From the NCBI GenBank assembly GCA_025677605.1, contig GCA_025677605.1_4110.1: a stretch of DNA of 64,000 bases; one strand, given 5' to 3'. The stretch is from a phage. A program made the position numbers and the translations under genes. Below, piece after piece: positions 18,873 to 54,714 of this stretch. How positions within the stretch are numbered: the stretch's first letter is position 1; every line of letters begins with the position of its first letter. Under the pieces are notes generated by a model. The model searched no databases. It saw only the letters and a list, made by a program, of their open reading frames with translations, and was not told the DNA's origin.

Positions 18873-19289
18873 CTATCCTTTATTTTTTTGAAACAATTTA
18901 ACAGCTTTAATTATACTGTTACACATTCGTTCGGTCAAATACTTTTGACAATCTTGAACATCAATGTACATGAATTTATCCAATTCTGGATGGCTTTTAC
19001 CATATCGATTGGTATAAGTACTGTTACACTTCAGTTCATCCGGTTCGGGTTTGTATTTAGCTGTATAGAAAAATAAAACTAATCTTTTCCCTTTCCTGTA
19101 TGATACATCACCTAATAAGAGAAGATCCTTTTCATCAATCTCAAATCCTGTTTCTTCATAGCACTCACGAACAGCAGCTTCAGCAAATGTTTCATTGCCC
19201 TCGGTTTTACCTTTTGGTAAATCCCAATGCTTCTGTCCGTGTTGTGTGTCCAACAAGTATCTGACCATCACGATAAAATATAATGCCAC
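18873..19289 (-). CDS. NUDIX hydrolase
   Basis: Canonical Nudix box GKTEGNETFAEAAVRECYEETGF (GX5EX7REUXEEXGU). Confidence 0.8.
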   Translation of the reverse strand: MALYFIVMVRYLLDTQHGQKHWDLPKGKTEGNETFAEAAVRECYEETGFEIDEKDLLLLGDVSYRKGKRLVLFFYTAKYKPEPDELKCNSTYTNRYGKSHPELDKFMYIDVQDCQKYLTERMCNSIIKAVKLFQKNKG

Positions 19290-19341
19290 AACTATAACGC
19301 ATAATCTTATCTCTTAATAGCAATGATGCCCAGATACAATT

Positions 19342-19350
19342 ATTATATCA
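19342..19350 (-). promoter_or_regulatory. extended -10 element TGaTATAAT (no clear -35)
   Basis: Minus-strand TGATATAAT about 50 nt upstream of the NUDIX ATG, in the 86-bp gap after the CCA gene; same 9-mer as the consensus promoters at 3524 and 3617. Confidence 0.3.
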
Positions 19351-19375
19351 GAAGTCGTTCTCTTTTCCCAGAGTT

Positions 19376-20488
19376 TTAAAACATTTGTTGAATTGCTTCA
19401 CAACGTAAAACTGAAACAAAATCACGGATTTCAGATGCTTCTAACTCACCGTCTTTTACCAGTTGTTGAATATCTGGAAGTACTACATCAGTGTAACGAT
19501 CATATACCTTAATGATTAAATCTTCAAGGTCTAAATCAATCTCTTTACGTAGAATAAAATATTCCAGTACTTTGTAAAGGAATTCTTCACCGCCGTTATT
19601 CTTGATATTCATATCCAGTAATAATTGTCCCATTTCATTTGGGGTCTTTTTACGGAATGCCTTGATATCATCACGGAAACGTTTGATGTAATTACTGAAT
19701 TTAACGTACTTAACGGGCATTTTAATAGCACCATTCAGTACTGAATCCTCACCAATTTCTTCTTTCTCAAGAAGCACAGACCATAAGAAATATGGCTTAT
19801 ATGCTTCAGTACAATTATCAGAGATATGATCAATGAGTTCCAATGACTTTTTGGTTAATGTAGCATTAAATGCTTTTTCATAGTAACCAAACTTACTTAG
19901 TGTTTTAAGGAACTTAGCTGGCTTTTCTTCTGACAGTGCTTTTTCAAATTCAACATAAACACGGTCTGGAACAAGGTGATTTAGCTCACCAGACGCTACC
20001 ATATCGATTGCAAGTGCTTCAGTAGTCTCGTGTATAGAGAAATCAGAATAACGCGTAGCAAAGCGAGCTAGACGTAATACACGCAATGGATCTTCTTTGA
20101 AGTGTTCGGATACATGACGTAGTACTTTATTCTTGATATCAGCTTTACCACCGTATGGGTCGATGTGAATTTGCAGTACTGGATCATACGCGATTGCATT
20201 AATTGTAAGATCACGACGATACAAATCTTGTTCCAGTGTTACACCTTTTGTATCCACTTCGAAGCCACCGTATCCAGTACCAGTTTTTCGTTCAGTACGG
20301 GCTAATGCGTGTTCGTTACCTTCTGGGCTTAGATAAACTGGAAAATCTTTACCAACCTGTTTATATCCAATACTTTCTAAGTATTTGATATCAGATTCAG
20401 TTGCACCAACAATGACATAATCTTTGTCCTTTGCACGAATGCCCATTAGACGGTCGCGGCAGTATCCACCAACAAGGTATTTTTTCAT
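19376..20488 (-). CDS. cca: tRNA nucleotidyltransferase (CCA-adding enzyme)
   Basis: N-terminal LVGGYCRDRLMG with DxD-type nucleotidyltransferase motif; about 370 aa; ATG at 20488 with GGGAGAA RBS. Confidence 0.8.
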   Translation of the reverse strand: MKKYLVGGYCRDRLMGIRAKDKDYVIVGATESDIKYLESIGYKQVGKDFPVYLSPEGNEHALARTERKTGTGYGGFEVDTKGVTLEQDLYRRDLTINAIAYDPVLQIHIDPYGGKADIKNKVLRHVSEHFKEDPLRVLRLARFATRYSDFSIHETTEALAIDMVASGELNHLVPDRVYVEFEKALSEEKPAKFLKTLSKFGYYEKAFNATLTKKSLELIDHISDNCTEAYKPYFLWSVLLEKEEIGEDSVLNGAIKMPVKYVKFSNYIKRFRDDIKAFRKKTPNEMGQLLLDMNIKNNGGEEFLYKVLEYFILRKEIDLDLEDLIIKVYDRYTDVVLPDIQQLVKDGELEASEIRDFVSVLRCEAIQQMF

Positions 20489-20624
20489 TCTTATTCTCCC
20501 ATCAACCAATCACGCAGACTTTCCCAGAAGCCTTTTGGCTTGTATTCTGGAACTTGATATTCGTCGGTTCCTTGTTCAGAAACACCCCAATCTTCTTCTA
20601 ACATTGCAATCATAAAGCCTCCAA

Positions 20625-21047
20625 TTAAATTAATCTGTCACGCAAGCGGGATTCATATTGTTTATGTATAGATAGTATATACTGAAATGAAGAATAGTCA
20701 ATACCAAATGTGTCATCAATGAACATATACTGGGCCAGTACTTCAGGTCCATCATCAACTACAGGCAATGAACCTGCTTTTTTTTCTAACACATTCCATG
20801 CAAACTCATCGGAAGTATCAAATCTATGGTATTGTAGTTCTATCTTACTTTTTCTTAGTATAATTAATAATTCATCACCATCATCATATGCATTACGGAT
20901 TTTAATACGTACTGTTCCTTGTAACTGGTTAGTATACATTACGCGATATTGGTTGTATGTGACTAAACCACGTCTTTCAGTACTGAACTCTTGTTCAGAA
21001 AAGTACTTTAACGTTTCGTTGAATTTGGGTATTTTAGTAACGTCCAA
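20625..21047 (-). CDS. hypothetical protein, tandem paralogue A (140 aa)
   Basis: C-terminal region (QYMFIDDTFGIDYSSFQYILSIHKQYE) is paralogous to the next gene; apparent TTG start at 21047 with GAGGA RBS. Confidence 0.45.
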   Translation of the reverse strand: MDVTKIPKFNETLKYFSEQEFSTERRGLVTYNQYRVMYTNQLQGTVRIKIRNAYDDGDELLIILRKSKIELQYHRFDTSDEFAWNVLEKKAGSLPVVDDGPEVLAQYMFIDDTFGIDYSSFQYILSIHKQYESRLRDRLI

Positions 21048-21444
21048 TTACGTAATCCTCATACTGTTCGTATACACGCATTATACTCTGATATGTCACA
21101 AAGTCAATACCAAAGGTATCATCAATGAACTGATATTGCATAAACTCTTCCTCGGTAGCACCAATAGGAAGTGTGCCGTTTCGTTGATCGTTTGATTGAA
21201 CATCTTCAATGTACATCAAACCTATACTTTCATCTAAAGTGATATCTATCATAAAAACATCTTCACTATAAAACATGTTATATGAACGGATGAAAAGATT
21301 ACCAGTTCTATCAAAACTTGATACATGTGTTTCAACGTAGGTTCTATCTAAACTAAAGAATAAACCAGTACCATCGGGTTTTCGTTGGTCTTTCAATTTA
21401 ATTTCGATAGCATCAAATATCGGTTTAATATTAAACTTTTTCAT
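21034..21444 (-). CDS. hypothetical protein, tandem paralogue B (about 136 aa)
   Basis: Paralogue of 20625-21047; ATG at 21444 overlaps the stop of the upstream gene (ATGA). Confidence 0.45.
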   Translation of the reverse strand: MKKFNIKPIFDAIEIKLKDQRKPDGTGLFFSLDRTYVETHVSSFDRTGNLFIRSYNMFYSEDVFMIDITLDESIGLMYIEDVQSNDQRNGTLPIGATEEEFMQYQFIDDTFGIDFVTYQSIMRVYEQYEDYVIGRY

Positions 21445-21629
21445 AAGCAAATCACATACTTATTACTATGTGGATCGTAACAGTAAGAGTCGTTCACCTT
21501 AATGCCAGGTTTGAGTTCCAGGGTTGTACCCATTTCAGTACTGGGTTCTGCATCAAAGTAAATCATCACACCAATGCCACCGAGTAAGGCTATGATACAT
21601 ATAACTGCACCTATTGTATATTCCATCAC
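21441..21629 (-). CDS. small membrane protein (62 aa)
   Basis: One predicted TM helix (IGAVICIIALLGGIGVMIYF); ORF in track. Confidence 0.4.
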   Translation of the reverse strand: MMEYTIGAVICIIALLGGIGVMIYFDAEPSTEMGTTLELKPGIKVNDSYCYDPHSNKYVICL

Positions 21630-21643
21630 TATACCTCTGTTAT

Positions 21644-21729
21644 AAAAAGTAATTATACATTTTATTGTACAATATAAAAAGGTCTTAAAAAGTAATTATA
21701 CATTTTATTGTACAATATAAAAAGGTCTT
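21644..21729. repeat. perfect 43-bp tandem direct repeat (2 copies), each with the 12-bp palindrome TATTGTACAATA
   Basis: Copy 1 at 21644-21686 and copy 2 at 21687-21729 are identical; the repeat overlaps the 3' end of CDS 21662-22075. Confidence 0.8.
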
Positions 21730-22075
21730 TCACATTATCATAAGTAATGTTAGATAGATCATAAATCAATGATAACTGAAAAAATGAAGCTTCGTCTATA
21801 TCTACTGGGATTATAACATCATCATCTTCTGCCATTTTATTATCGTAGTATTTTATGTGGTCTTCATTAAACTCAATAGAGATTGATACTGCGTTGGATT
21901 TCATATCTTCAATTAATCCAATCAAATTAGATTTATCATTAATAAAAAATCCAATTCCAACCCTACGGTCCTCTGGATATGGATAGTACCATCTATTAAA
22001 TACTAGACTATCTGGTAAATCAACATCATGTGTTGATACGAGAGATTTTACAATTTCCATCCAAGCATAATTCAT
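21662..22075 (-). CDS. hypothetical protein (137 aa; C-terminus encoded by the tandem repeat)
   Basis: ORF in track; the last approximately 22 codons lie inside the duplicated 43-bp unit. Confidence 0.4.
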   Translation of the reverse strand: MNYAWMEIVKSLVSTHDVDLPDSLVFNRWYYPYPEDRRVGIGFFINDKSNLIGLIEDMKSNAVSISIEFNEDHIKYYDNKMAEDDDVIIPVDIDEASFFQLSLIYDLSNITYDNVKDLFILYNKMYNYFLRPFYIVQ

Positions 22076-22089
22076 AATTAAAACTCCAT

Positions 22090-22117
22090 AAGAAAAGGGA
22101 CAGAATTAATCTGTCCC
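22090..22117 (-). terminator. putative terminator hairpin after hpf
   Basis: 7-bp perfect stem GGGACAG/CTGTCCC with 7-nt loop directly after the HPF stop; the U-run is short. Confidence 0.35.
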
Positions 22118-22126
22118 TTTATTATA

Positions 22127-22459
22127 TTACTCTTCTTCGTCAGTTACATCAACTACAACTGGACGGTCTGGATGGTTTCGGCGGTGCAATTTAATGCTTT
22201 TGTCTTTACTGAATACAGTTTCCATTTTTTCGAATGAATCGACAATCGCCTTGTATAAATCTGCATCATCGGCAGTAACAGACTTACCACCTGATGTTAA
22301 AGTTACTGCGTACTGTGTCTTATGCTCTTTTTTCACATGAACACCAATATTCAGTACTGAAGAATCACTAAATTTATTTAGAGTGTTTGCTTCTTGATGA
22401 ATTGCGTCATGGATTGCTGGAGTAATATCAACATTACCTTGAATAACTAGATTTAGCAT
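22127..22459 (-). CDS. hpf: ribosome hibernation promoting factor (HPF/YfiA/RaiA family)
   Basis: 110 aa; N-terminus MLNLVIQGNVDITPAI and the DLYKAIVD core align with the bacterial HPF pattern as recalled; RBS AAGGAAGG. Confidence 0.75.
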   Translation of the reverse strand: MLNLVIQGNVDITPAIHDAIHQEANTLNKFSDSSVLNIGVHVKKEHKTQYAVTLTSGGKSVTADDADLYKAIVDSFEKMETVFSKDKSIKLHRRNHPDRPVVVDVTDEEE

Positions 22460-45901: not shown

Positions 45902-45946
45902 ATATATCCCTTTTATCTAGATATCCATAGTGTATTTATAATAGTA

Positions 45947-54646: not shown

Positions 54647-54714
54647 GATTTACTTCCTTCTTCGATAATGGTGTGTTCATTATAGCAATGAACACATTTA
54701 ATGTCAATAATAGA

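What the first reader, a model, noticed from the sequence alone, without database searches (positions are those of the whole stretch)
21644..21729. Perfect 43-bp tandem duplication carrying a 12-bp palindrome, overlapping a gene 3' end
Two identical 43-bp units each contain the perfect palindrome TATTGTACAATA, a typical dimeric-repressor operator shape, and each contains an ATG on the coding strand. The duplication is not a multiple of three, so it sets the present C-terminus and stop of CDS 21662-22075. It sits immediately upstream of the next gene cluster, so it could be a paired operator, or a recent duplication that changed a protein tail.
Basis: seen in the sequence. Interest (0 to 1): 0.45.

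Follow-up and report, generated by a model that had tools for sequence, protein, structure and literature searches.

The report
Inherited 43-bp duplication at gene end
A real but ordinary 43-bp tandem duplication, shared by one sub-lineage of giant E. coli phages, adds seven amino acids to a small protein of unknown function; nothing indicates that its palindrome is a regulatory site.

Summary
Window 21643-21729 holds two perfect head-to-tail copies of a 43-bp unit, each with the palindrome TATTGTACAATA. They overlap the 3' end of the minus-strand CDS 21662-22075.

The window is an Asteriusvirus jumbo phage (121Q/PBECO4 group), closest to Escherichia phage A4. Five of 35 database records carry the same duplication (A4, BF17, vB_Ec-M-J, WPEC5, EC.P1). 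The other 30 have one copy, so this is not an assembly artefact. It arose once, on one allele of the gene's 3' end, and spread by recombination.

In single-copy phages the protein ends ...NYFL*. Because 43 = 3n+1, the second copy is read in another frame, adding RPFYIVQ and a new stop at 21662-21664.

The operator reading is not supported:
- The palindrome occurs nowhere else in the 355-kb A4 genome.
- It is coding sequence (I-L-Y-N-K) and is broken in the most diverged homologues.
- 12-bp palindromes are common here.

The unit scores -18 bits against the phage's own early-promoter model, whose true sites score 13-58 bits.

Verdict: a near-neutral lineage marker of low interest.

More striking things seen in passing: AGTACT/CAGTACTG is 7- to 60-fold over-represented genome-wide, and GCGC is completely absent.

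The parts
21686..21728 (-). Upstream copy of the 43-bp unit in transcription order (AGACCTTTTTATATTGTACAATAAAATGTATAATTACTTTTTA). It is read in the ancestral frame as (K)DLFILYNKMYNYFL. The register is ambiguous by 1 bp (T at 21729).
21643..21685 (-). Downstream copy of the unit, the inserted extra copy. Its first 21 nt are translated in the +1 frame and the rest is now untranslated spacer.
21665..21685 (-). Seven new codons, RPFYIVQ (AGA CCT TTT TAT ATT GTA CAA), created by the frame shift of the second copy.
   Evidence: These residues lie outside the PHROG 36582 profile match.
21662..21664 (-). Present stop codon TAA. It overlaps the last two bases of the second palindrome.
21640..21642 (-). 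Ancestral stop codon TAA (TAC TTT TTA TAA). It is still the stop in single-copy relatives and is no longer reached here.
21706..21717 (.). Palindrome TATTGTACAATA in the upstream copy. It encodes part of I-L-Y-N-K.
21663..21674 (.). Palindrome TATTGTACAATA in the downstream copy.
21662..22075 (-). CDS of 137 aa, function unknown (PHROG 36582; homologue of 121Q gp534 and A4_530). Its tail is altered by the duplication.
21441..21626 (-). Next cistron, a 61-aa hydrophobic protein (PHROG 4189; homologue of 121Q gp535). Its Shine-Dalgarno GAGG lies at 21634-21637. The spacer from upstream stop to this start is 35 nt here and 13 nt in single-copy relatives.
22094..22120 (-). Conserved intrinsic-terminator hairpin (AAAGGGACAGA/TCTGTCCCTTT plus a T-run) between the HPF/RaiA-like gene and the CDS. 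It is context for how the CDS is transcribed.
   Evidence: It is annotated as a terminator in G17 and UE-S1.

Best explanation
This is a lineage-specific tandem duplication of the last 43 bp of a small gene of unknown function, in an Asteriusvirus jumbo phage. It arose once by illegitimate recombination or replication slippage, with only 1 bp of junction microhomology, on one particular allele of the gene's 3' end. It was then carried into different genomic backgrounds by homologous recombination among co-circulating phages. Because 43 = 3n+1, the ribosome leaves the first copy and reads the second copy in another frame. The protein therefore gains RPFYIVQ and stops inside the second palindrome. 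The ancestral stop, the Shine-Dalgarno sequence and the start of the next gene are kept intact downstream, so the change is tolerated. The palindrome and the TATAAT are by-products of the coding sequence I-L-Y-N-K-M-Y-N-Y. Shown: the copy-number distribution, the single origin, the consequence for the protein and the lack of other sites. Inferred: the mutational mechanism and near-neutrality.
For: Distribution of the duplication:
- The BLAST span of the 181-bp query is 181/182/175/151/151 bp in A4, BF17, vB_Ec-M-J, WPEC5 and EC.P1, and 43 bp shorter in the other 30 records.
- The sequences read directly show two copies in those five and one copy in 11 others.
- All carriers, and no single-copy phage, share the linked upstream allele TTGATTTATGATCTATCTAAC. 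Yet carriers differ by up to 19% over the surrounding 2.8 kb (BF17 81.0%) and have different alleles in the middle of the same CDS.
- WPEC5 and EC.P1 carry the duplication next to a different downstream module. Their first copy ends TTTTTA (type 1) and their second ends TTTATATGA (type 2), which shows a crossover inside the second copy.

Effect on the protein:
- Single-copy proteins end NYFL* or NYFI*; carriers end NYFLRPFYIVQ*.
- The PHROG profile ends at residue 130 of 137.

No sign of a cis-acting role:
- TATTGTACAATA occurs only in the two copies in the 355,528-bp A4 genome, with four single-mismatch sites that look like chance.
- Its core TGTACA is not enriched: 189 against 177 +/- 9 after synonymous shuffling.
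- Synonymous variation in the last 15 codons (3/15) is no lower than in the rest of the gene (33/114).
- The early-promoter PWM score is -18 bits, against 13-58 for true sites.
- The RNA fold is not unusual, z = -0.83, and there is no significant Rfam match.
Against: - The unit is more conserved at the nucleotide level (95-100% in most relatives, 88% in the most distant) than the 5' part of the gene (71-88%). An overlapping signal is therefore not excluded, although the synonymous-site test is not significant.
- It contains TGTATAAT, the exact -10 module of this phage's early promoters.
- A terminator sits just upstream of the CDS, so an internal promoter for the downstream genes would make sense.
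- The two copies have stayed identical in five of six carriers. This is expected for a young allele but would also fit selection.
- Neutrality was not tested.
Confidence: 0.8

Rival explanations
1. Tandem internal promoters. The unit carries a weak, -35-independent promoter (TG directly followed by TATAAT) that drives the downstream genes after the terminator at 22094-22120. The duplication doubles it and is kept by selection.
For: TGTATAAT is the invariant -10 module of about 21 strong early promoters in phage A4. A conserved terminator lies 20 nt upstream of the CDS start. The unit is a conserved island. The second copy's TATAAT now lies in untranslated spacer 25 nt upstream of the next start codon.
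Against: - The -35 positions read TTTTAT or TTTTTA (2-3 of 6), and there is no AGTAC element.
- The PWM score is -18 bits and about 9,000 genome positions score as well.
- There are 67 TGTATAAT sites in the genome against roughly 48 expected from composition. About 21 of them sit in early-promoter context, and the rest sit in no promoter context.
- The TG is adjacent to the hexamer rather than in the canonical TGnTATAAT register (established sigma-70 knowledge).
- TH47 has TACAAT.
- The unit matches none of the three promoter classes described for RaK2-like phages: RpoD-like, TGAAACG-type and ATAAATA late (PMC5259590).
- No promoter is annotated here in G17 or UE-S1.
Confidence: 0.07
2. Paired operator. 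Each TATTGTACAATA binds a dimeric phage or host regulator, and two sites 43 bp apart (about four helical turns) allow cooperative binding that controls the downstream genes.
For: The sequence has perfect 12-bp dyad symmetry, extending to 16 of 18 bp. The centre-to-centre spacing of 43 bp would put the sites on about the same face of the helix (inference).
Against: - There is no other copy in the 64-kb window or the 355-kb A4 genome.
- The ancestral and majority state is a single site.
- The site is coding sequence, and its changes in JNE01 (AAATTGTACGATAAA) and Turkey5 (AAATTGTATGATAAA) break the dyad.
- 12-bp palindromes are common in this genome (37 per 64 kb) and the core TGTACA is not enriched.
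- No promoter overlaps it.
- No DNA-binding domain was detected in the eight neighbouring proteins scanned.
Confidence: 0.03
3. Adaptive change of the protein tail. The seven extra residues RPFYIVQ alter the function, stability or partner binding of the PHROG 36582 protein, and that is why the allele spread into several backgrounds.
For: The duplication-bearing 3' allele is found in otherwise divergent genomes (81-99% identical around it) from several countries. The C-terminal half of the protein is its most conserved part.
Against: The spread is equally explained by hitch-hiking and the frequent recombination typical of these phages. Thirty of 35 records do well without it. The function of the protein is unknown, so no test was possible.
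Confidence: 0.08
4. Assembly or sequencing artefact. A single copy was doubled by the assembler.
For: None beyond the general possibility. No reads were available.
Against: The same two-copy structure is present in five other genomes deposited by different laboratories. One of them has a substitution in one copy, and two have a recombinant second copy.
Confidence: 0.01

Closest known systems
Short tandem duplications from illegitimate recombination or replication slippage in T4-type and other lytic phages (classical T4 rII duplications; general knowledge, not tested here)
   Same: It has identical head-to-tail copies, a single-copy ancestral state in relatives and a minimal junction homology of 1 bp. 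It causes a frame change at a gene end that is tolerated because a stop follows quickly.
   Different: It is not a laboratory mutant. It is a fixed polymorphism shared by a sub-lineage and moved between backgrounds by recombination. No longer direct repeat flanks the unit: the 9-bp CTTTTTATA repeat inside it is spaced 32 bp apart, not 43.
Promoter-early stem-loop (PeSL) cassettes at module junctions of T4-type phages (Arbiol et al. 2010, Genome Biol Evol; cited from memory)
   Same: A short conserved sequence at a gene boundary coincides with the breakpoint where alternative downstream modules are joined. Here a two-gene cassette is present or absent directly after the unit.
   Different: The unit is coding sequence. 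It has no match to the phage's early-promoter model and no stable stem-loop. It is not repeated elsewhere in the genome, so it is not a mobile cassette.
Dyad-symmetric operators of phage repressors (lambda OR/OL, 434 ACAA-N6-TTGT, P22 Arc/Mnt; general knowledge)
   Same: It is a perfect short palindrome present twice at helical-repeat-compatible spacing near a gene start.
   Different: It has no recurrence in the genome, does not overlap a promoter and has no cognate regulator nearby. It is single in most relatives and is not conserved as a dyad in distant homologues.
Early sigma-70-type promoters of RaK2-like jumbo phages (RpoD-like class predicted in CBB and GAP32, PMC5259590; consensus derived here from phage A4)
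   Same: It shares the octamer TGTATAAT.
   Different: It lacks the TTGACA -35, the AGTAC element before the TG, the upstream A-tract and the downstream TTTACATC. It scores -18 bits, against a median of 45.

Membership tests
Tandem duplication polymorphism (slippage or illegitimate recombination) | Two adjacent head-to-tail copies with (near-)identical sequence | tested here: met
   43 bp x 2, 100% identical
Tandem duplication polymorphism (slippage or illegitimate recombination) | Relatives carry the unduplicated sequence at the same place | tested here: met
   30 of 35 database records are single-copy. Eleven were read directly and the rest were inferred from a 43-bp shorter BLAST span. One metagenome contig is also single-copy.
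Tandem duplication polymorphism (slippage or illegitimate recombination) | Single origin: carriers share linked derived variants | tested here: met
   All six carriers, and no non-carrier, have TTGATTTATGATCTATCTAAC just upstream.
Tandem duplication polymorphism (slippage or illegitimate recombination) | Support from individual sequencing reads in this isolate | not testable with these tools
   No reads were available. Five independent assemblies serve as indirect support.
Dimeric-repressor operator (pair) | Dyad symmetry | tested here: met
   A perfect 12-bp palindrome. Such palindromes are common here: 37 per 64 kb against 22 expected.
Dimeric-repressor operator (pair) | Recurrence of the site at other regulated positions in the genome | tested here: not met
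   There are 0 further exact sites in the window or in the whole A4 genome, where 0.17 are expected. The 4 one-mismatch sites are scattered.
Dimeric-repressor operator (pair) | Conservation of the dyad in homologous loci beyond what coding requires | tested here: not met
   The dyad is broken in JNE01 and Turkey5. Synonymous variation in the unit is not reduced: 3/15 against 33/114.
Dimeric-repressor operator (pair) | Overlap with, or adjacency to, a promoter that it could occlude | tested here: not met
   No promoter of the phage's early class is present (-18 bits). There is no late TATAAATA in the unit (sequence).
Dimeric-repressor operator (pair) | Protein binding to the site | not testable with these tools
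   This needs EMSA or footprinting. No DNA-binding Pfam domain was found in eight neighbouring proteins.
Asteriusvirus early sigma-70-type promoter | TTGACA-like -35, 16-17 nt spacer ending in AGTACTG, TATAAT, downstream TTTACATC | tested here: not met
   Only TGTATAAT is shared. The PWM built from 17 A4 promoters gives -18.5 and -18.1 bits, against 13.5-57.6 for the training sites.
T4-like late promoter | TATAAATA (ATAAATA in RaK2-like phages, PMC5259590) | tested here: not met
   The motif is absent from the unit and its flanks. The window's three TATAAATA sites are at 45940, 42727 and 11739.
Structured RNA element or intrinsic terminator | Stable, better-than-shuffled fold or a match to a known family | tested here: not met
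   MFE -26.3 kcal/mol against -23.5 +/- 3.4 for shuffles, z = -0.83. Rfam E-values are 0.45 or higher and far below the gathering scores.

The most novel reading that the evidence does not exclude
The conserved 43-bp gene end is a cis-acting element in its own right: a weak internal, -35-independent promoter or a protein-binding site used after the upstream terminator. Under this reading its doubling was selected in one sub-lineage, and the same element acts as the preferred crossover point for swapping the downstream gene cassette.
Probability: 0.08. Interest if true: 0.35.

Novelty: new member of a known kind. Interest (0 to 1): 0.12.

Why it matters
In itself it matters little. It is a small, probably near-neutral indel that changes the tail of an uncharacterised protein.

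It does have practical value as a clean, single-origin marker. It shows that segments of about 100 bp are exchanged among Asteriusvirus phages that differ by up to 19% nearby, and that crossovers occur within 40 bp of identity at gene boundaries.

It is also a caution. In a 35% G+C genome, 12-bp palindromes and TATAAT boxes inside coding sequence are expected by chance.

The genome-wide signals found on the way deserve a separate look: AGTACT/CAGTACTG enrichment that is conserved across two genera and partly built into the early promoters, and total absence of GCGC.

Tried and rejected
Repeat and palindrome searches:
- I searched the window for the palindrome with up to 2 mismatches. Only the two exact copies came up, and the rest were at chance level.
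- I assembled the whole A4 genome from eight fetched pieces and searched it for the palindrome and for the 43-bp unit with up to 6 mismatches. Nothing was found outside the locus.
- I scanned IMG/VR for the junction sequence (0 hits).
- I scanned IMG/VR and the metagenome collection for the unit core. This gave one single-copy hit each, and the IMG/VR contig has the same length as the 121Q record (348,532 bp), so it is probably that genome. No additional carriers were found.

RNA-level tests:
- An RNA fold of 21600-21760 on the coding strand gave z = -0.83.
- Rfam at a permissive threshold returned only chance-level matches.

Promoter tests:
- The generic sigma-70 scan found no more sites than in shuffles, 25 against 28.7, and nothing convincing in the unit.
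- A phage-specific promoter PWM rejected the unit.
- I looked for the TGAAACG-type and TATAAATA-type motifs of RaK2-like phages near the unit. None were present.

Neighbouring proteins and conservation:
- Pfam and PHROGs scans of the CDS and its neighbours found no function and no DNA-binding domain.
- The synonymous-site conservation test showed no extra constraint.

Mechanism of origin:
- I considered slippage between the 9-bp direct repeat CTTTTTATA inside the unit as the origin. I rejected it because that spacing is 32 bp, not 43.

Literature:
- Searches for TTCAGTACTGAA, CAGTACTG, AGTACT with RaK2, and GCGC with jumbo phage returned nothing relevant.
- The only hit for the 12-mer is an unrelated motif-finder output for E. 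coli TrpR sets.

Deliberately not run:
- I did not run the large protein-database searches or structure prediction, because they would not change the verdict.

Full report
**What is there**

The window is AT-rich (35.7% G+C), and in this region all genes run on the minus strand. Tandem Repeats Finder reports one long perfect array: 21643-21729, period 43, 2.0 copies, 100% identity, score 174.

On the coding strand the unit reads AGACCTTTTTATATTGTACAATAAAATGTATAATTACTTTTTA. Each copy holds the perfect palindrome TATTGTACAATA, at 21706-21717 and 21663-21674. The palindrome extends imperfectly to 18 bp.

CDS 21662-22075 (137 aa) reads the upstream copy as ...KDLFILYNKMYNYFL. It then reads the first 21 nt of the downstream copy in a different frame as RPFYIVQ and stops at TAA 21664-21662. 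The next cistron starts at ATG 21626, with GAGG at 21637-21634.

**Where the window comes from**

The region 20600-23400 matches 35 phage records, all Asteriusvirus jumbo phages of E. coli or Salmonella (121Q/PBECO4 group, genomes of 310-386 kb). The best match is Escherichia phage A4 at 98.9%. The others lie between 78% and 87%.

The local gene order, in the direction of transcription, is:
- a lysozyme with a LysM domain;
- an HPF/RaiA-like protein;
- a terminator;
- the CDS in question;
- a 61-aa hydrophobic protein;
- two paralogous proteins of unknown function;
- a 40-aa ORF;
- a CCA-adding enzyme.

The CDS belongs to PHROG 36582, function unknown. The profile matches residues 6-130, which leaves exactly the last seven residues outside.

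**One copy or two**

A 181-bp query across the repeat aligns over 181, 182, 175 (query 7-181), 151 and 151 bp (query 31-181) in BF17, vB_Ec-M-J, A4, WPEC5 and EC.P1. In the other 30 records it aligns over a span exactly 43 bp shorter, in two pieces.

I read the sequence in 16 of the 35 records. Those five have two copies and the eleven others have one. An IMG/VR contig of the same length as the 121Q record, probably that genome, and one metagenome contig are also single-copy.

The duplication is therefore real, because independent laboratories and countries found it. It is also derived, and it is in the minority.

**Single origin, then recombination**

All six carriers, and no single-copy phage, share the allele TTGATTTATGATCTATCTAAC immediately upstream of the unit. 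Yet the carriers are not uniformly close relatives. BF17 is only 81.0% identical to the window over 2.8 kb. Within the same CDS, the window and A4 carry a different central allele from BF17, vB_Ec-M-J, WPEC5 and EC.P1.

WPEC5 and EC.P1 combine the duplication with a different downstream module, a two-gene cassette that is also seen with a single copy in fEgEco12, CMSTMSU and ph0011, and in a more diverged form in JNE01 and Turkey5. In WPEC5 and EC.P1 the first copy ends with the type-1 sequence TACTTTTTA, and the second ends with the type-2 sequence TACTTTATATGA. A crossover must therefore have taken place inside the second copy.

EC.P1 has one substitution in its first copy, and vB_Ec-M-J has an extra T after its second copy. 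This is the expected pattern for a young allele that spreads by homologous exchange in a mosaic phage population.

**Origin of the duplication**

The identity beyond two full units is 1 bp, so the junction microhomology is one base. The 9-bp direct repeat CTTTTTATA inside the unit is spaced 32 bp apart and cannot explain a 43-bp period (sequence). Illegitimate recombination or slippage without significant homology is the likeliest origin. This is an inference.

**Consequence of the duplication**

In single-copy phages the gene ends TAC TTT TTA TAA (NYFL*) or TAC TTT ATA TGA (NYFI*), 13 nt before the next start codon. In carriers the protein gains RPFYIVQ. The distance from stop to the next start grows to 35 nt, and the Shine-Dalgarno sequence and start of the next gene are unchanged. 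A third copy would not change the protein further, because the stop lies in the second copy.

**Is the palindrome an operator?**

The evidence says no, for six reasons.
1. Perfect 12-bp palindromes are frequent here: 37 in the window against 22 +/- 5.5 simulated. Eleven of those 37 belong to another motif family, described below.
2. With up to 2 mismatches the motif occurs at chance frequency, 13 against 11.7.
3. In the complete 355,528-bp A4 genome, fetched in eight pieces, it occurs only in the two copies. The four one-mismatch sites are scattered.
4. Its core TGTACA is not enriched: 189 observed against 177 +/- 9 after synonymous-codon shuffling.
5. It is coding sequence (ATA TTG TAC AAT AAA). 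In the most diverged homologues it reads AAATTGTACGATAAA and AAATTGTATGATAAA, which destroys the symmetry.
6. The ancestral state is one site, not a pair.

**Is the unit a promoter?**

This is the more serious rival. The unit contains TGTATAAT, and a conserved terminator (22094-22120) lies just upstream of the CDS.

Listing all TGTATAAT sites in A4 revealed the phage's early-promoter consensus: aaaAGTAcTTGACAaagtatnttAGTACTGTATAATrgTTTACATc. It is present about 21 times, mostly at 4.8-23.6 kb and 304-334 kb of ON286972. A weight matrix built from 17 of these sites scores them at 13.5-57.6 bits, with a median of 45. The two unit copies score -18.5 and -18.1 bits, in the middle of the other, non-promoter TGTATAAT sites, and about 9,000 genome positions score as well.

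The -35 positions of the unit read TTTTAT or TTTTTA. The total of 67 TGTATAAT sites compares with roughly 48 expected from composition, and about 21 of them sit in early-promoter context. The unit also lacks the TGAAACG-type and ATAAATA-type motifs predicted for RaK2-like phages (PMC5259590).

The unit is more conserved in nucleotide sequence than the 5' part of the gene, 95-100% against 71-88%. However, synonymous variation in its 15 codons (3/15) is not lower than elsewhere (33/114). I give weak promoter activity a probability of 7%.

**RNA level**

The coding-strand RNA of 21600-21760 folds no better than shuffles, z = -0.83. Rfam gives only chance-level matches.

**Verdict**

This is a real, inherited, single-origin 43-bp tandem duplication that lengthens a protein of unknown function by seven residues. 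It is most likely near-neutral. The operator interpretation is not supported, and the alternative of a duplication that changed a protein tail is. Interest is low. The event is a new instance of a very familiar kind of mutation, and its main use is as a recombination marker.

**Seen in passing**

The palindrome census turned up a different and highly non-random motif.
- TTCAGTACTGAA occurs 8 times exactly, and 17 times with up to one mismatch, in the window, against 0.24 expected. It occurs 23 times in A4 against 0.05 expected.
- CAGTACTG occurs 224 times and AGTACT 922 times in A4, against about 4 and 120 expected from composition. All the most frequent 10-mers and 12-mers of the genome derive from it.
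- The flanks are dyad-symmetric.
- Sites lie in all three reading frames and in intergenic DNA.
- Synonymous shuffling removes more than half of them, reducing AGTACT from 922 to 383 +/- 11.
- Two sites that could be checked across many relatives (window 20976 and 22350) are conserved in relatives whose flanks differ at 14-26 of 80 positions.
- The same roughly 7-fold enrichment is present in Klebsiella phage RaK2, a different genus.
- AGTACT-like elements flank the -35 and -10 of the early promoters.

Conversely, GCGC is completely absent from A4 (0 against 338 expected), from the window (0 against 64) and from the RaK2 sample (0 against 32). Several 6-bp restriction-type palindromes are also absent. 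I found no description of either feature in the searchable literature.

Noticed in passing
window 6872, 19734, 20976, 22350, 23494, 26883, 46454, 47694 (exact TTCAGTACTGAA); 9 more with one mismatch; 46 CAGTACTG and 152 AGTACT sites window-wide: The palindrome TTCAGTACTGAA (core CAGTACTG/AGTACT) is massively over-represented: 17 sites with up to 1 mismatch against 0.24 expected in the window. In phage A4, AGTACT occurs 922 times against 120 expected and CAGTACTG 224 times against about 4. Sites lie in all reading frames and in intergenic DNA, and their flanks are dyad-symmetric. Synonymous-codon shuffling removes over half of them. Two sites checked across many relatives are conserved in diverged relatives, and the roughly 7-fold AGTACT enrichment is shared with Klebsiella phage RaK2, another genus. 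The function is unknown. A candidate is a binding site for a phage DNA-binding protein. I found no description in the literature.
   Followed up: partly
whole window; whole A4 genome (L017-L024); RaK2 L027: GCGC is entirely absent: 0 against 64 expected in the window, 0 against 338 in the 355-kb A4 genome and 0 against 32 in 50 kb of RaK2. CCATGG, CAGCTG, AGGCCT, GGATCC, CTGCAG and GTCGAC are also absent from the window, and AGATCT is depleted (3 against 21.5). This is extreme restriction-site-type avoidance. Complete loss of a 4-mer could also fit a phage nuclease that targets GCGC in host DNA, which is speculation.
   Followed up: partly
A4 ON286972 4.8-23.6 kb and 304-334 kb (L017, L023); strong sigma-70-type sites in the window on the minus strand at 54707, 39845, 3644, 3551: The early promoters of this phage group share a long consensus, aaaAGTAcTTGACAaagtatnttAGTACTGTATAATrgTTTACATc. 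AGTACT-like elements sit just upstream of both the -35 and the -10 hexamers, which links the promoters to the genome-wide AGTACT motif.
   Followed up: partly
directly downstream of the unit (window about 21640); relatives L007-L012, L016: The homology breakpoint for an optional two-gene cassette (genes of 372 nt and 126 nt) lies exactly at the stop codon of the CDS (TACTTTTTATAA... against TACTTTATATGATTGAGG...). The cassette is present in WPEC5, EC.P1, fEgEco12, CMSTMSU and ph0011, and in a more diverged form in JNE01 and Turkey5. It is absent in the window, A4, 121Q and others.
   Followed up: partly
window 20625-21047 and 21034-21450 (minus strand): Two adjacent paralogous genes of the same family (PHROG 20693; shared C-terminal motif ...FIDDTFGID...) overlap by 14 nt. 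This is an older tandem gene duplication. Phage A4 has a second matching place elsewhere in its genome.
   Followed up: no
window 22094-22120: This terminator hairpin has an invariant GGGACAG/CTGTCCC stem and a variable loop across 17 phages. It is placed only about 20 nt before the next start codon, so the downstream genes must depend on read-through or on an unidentified promoter.
   Followed up: partly
L015 (Salmonella phage SD-1_S14), about 1516-1520: A deletion starts right after the stop codon of the CDS homologue and removes the ribosome-binding site and the first ~16 codons of the downstream 61-aa gene.
   Followed up: no
window 18873-20509 and 22127-22459: This is a cluster of translation-related and RNA-related host-like genes: an HPF/RaiA ribosome-hibernation homologue (Pfam PF02482, E = 3.8e-10), a CCA-adding tRNA nucleotidyltransferase (PF01743) and a NUDIX-like ORF. 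They are already annotated in relatives.
   Followed up: no
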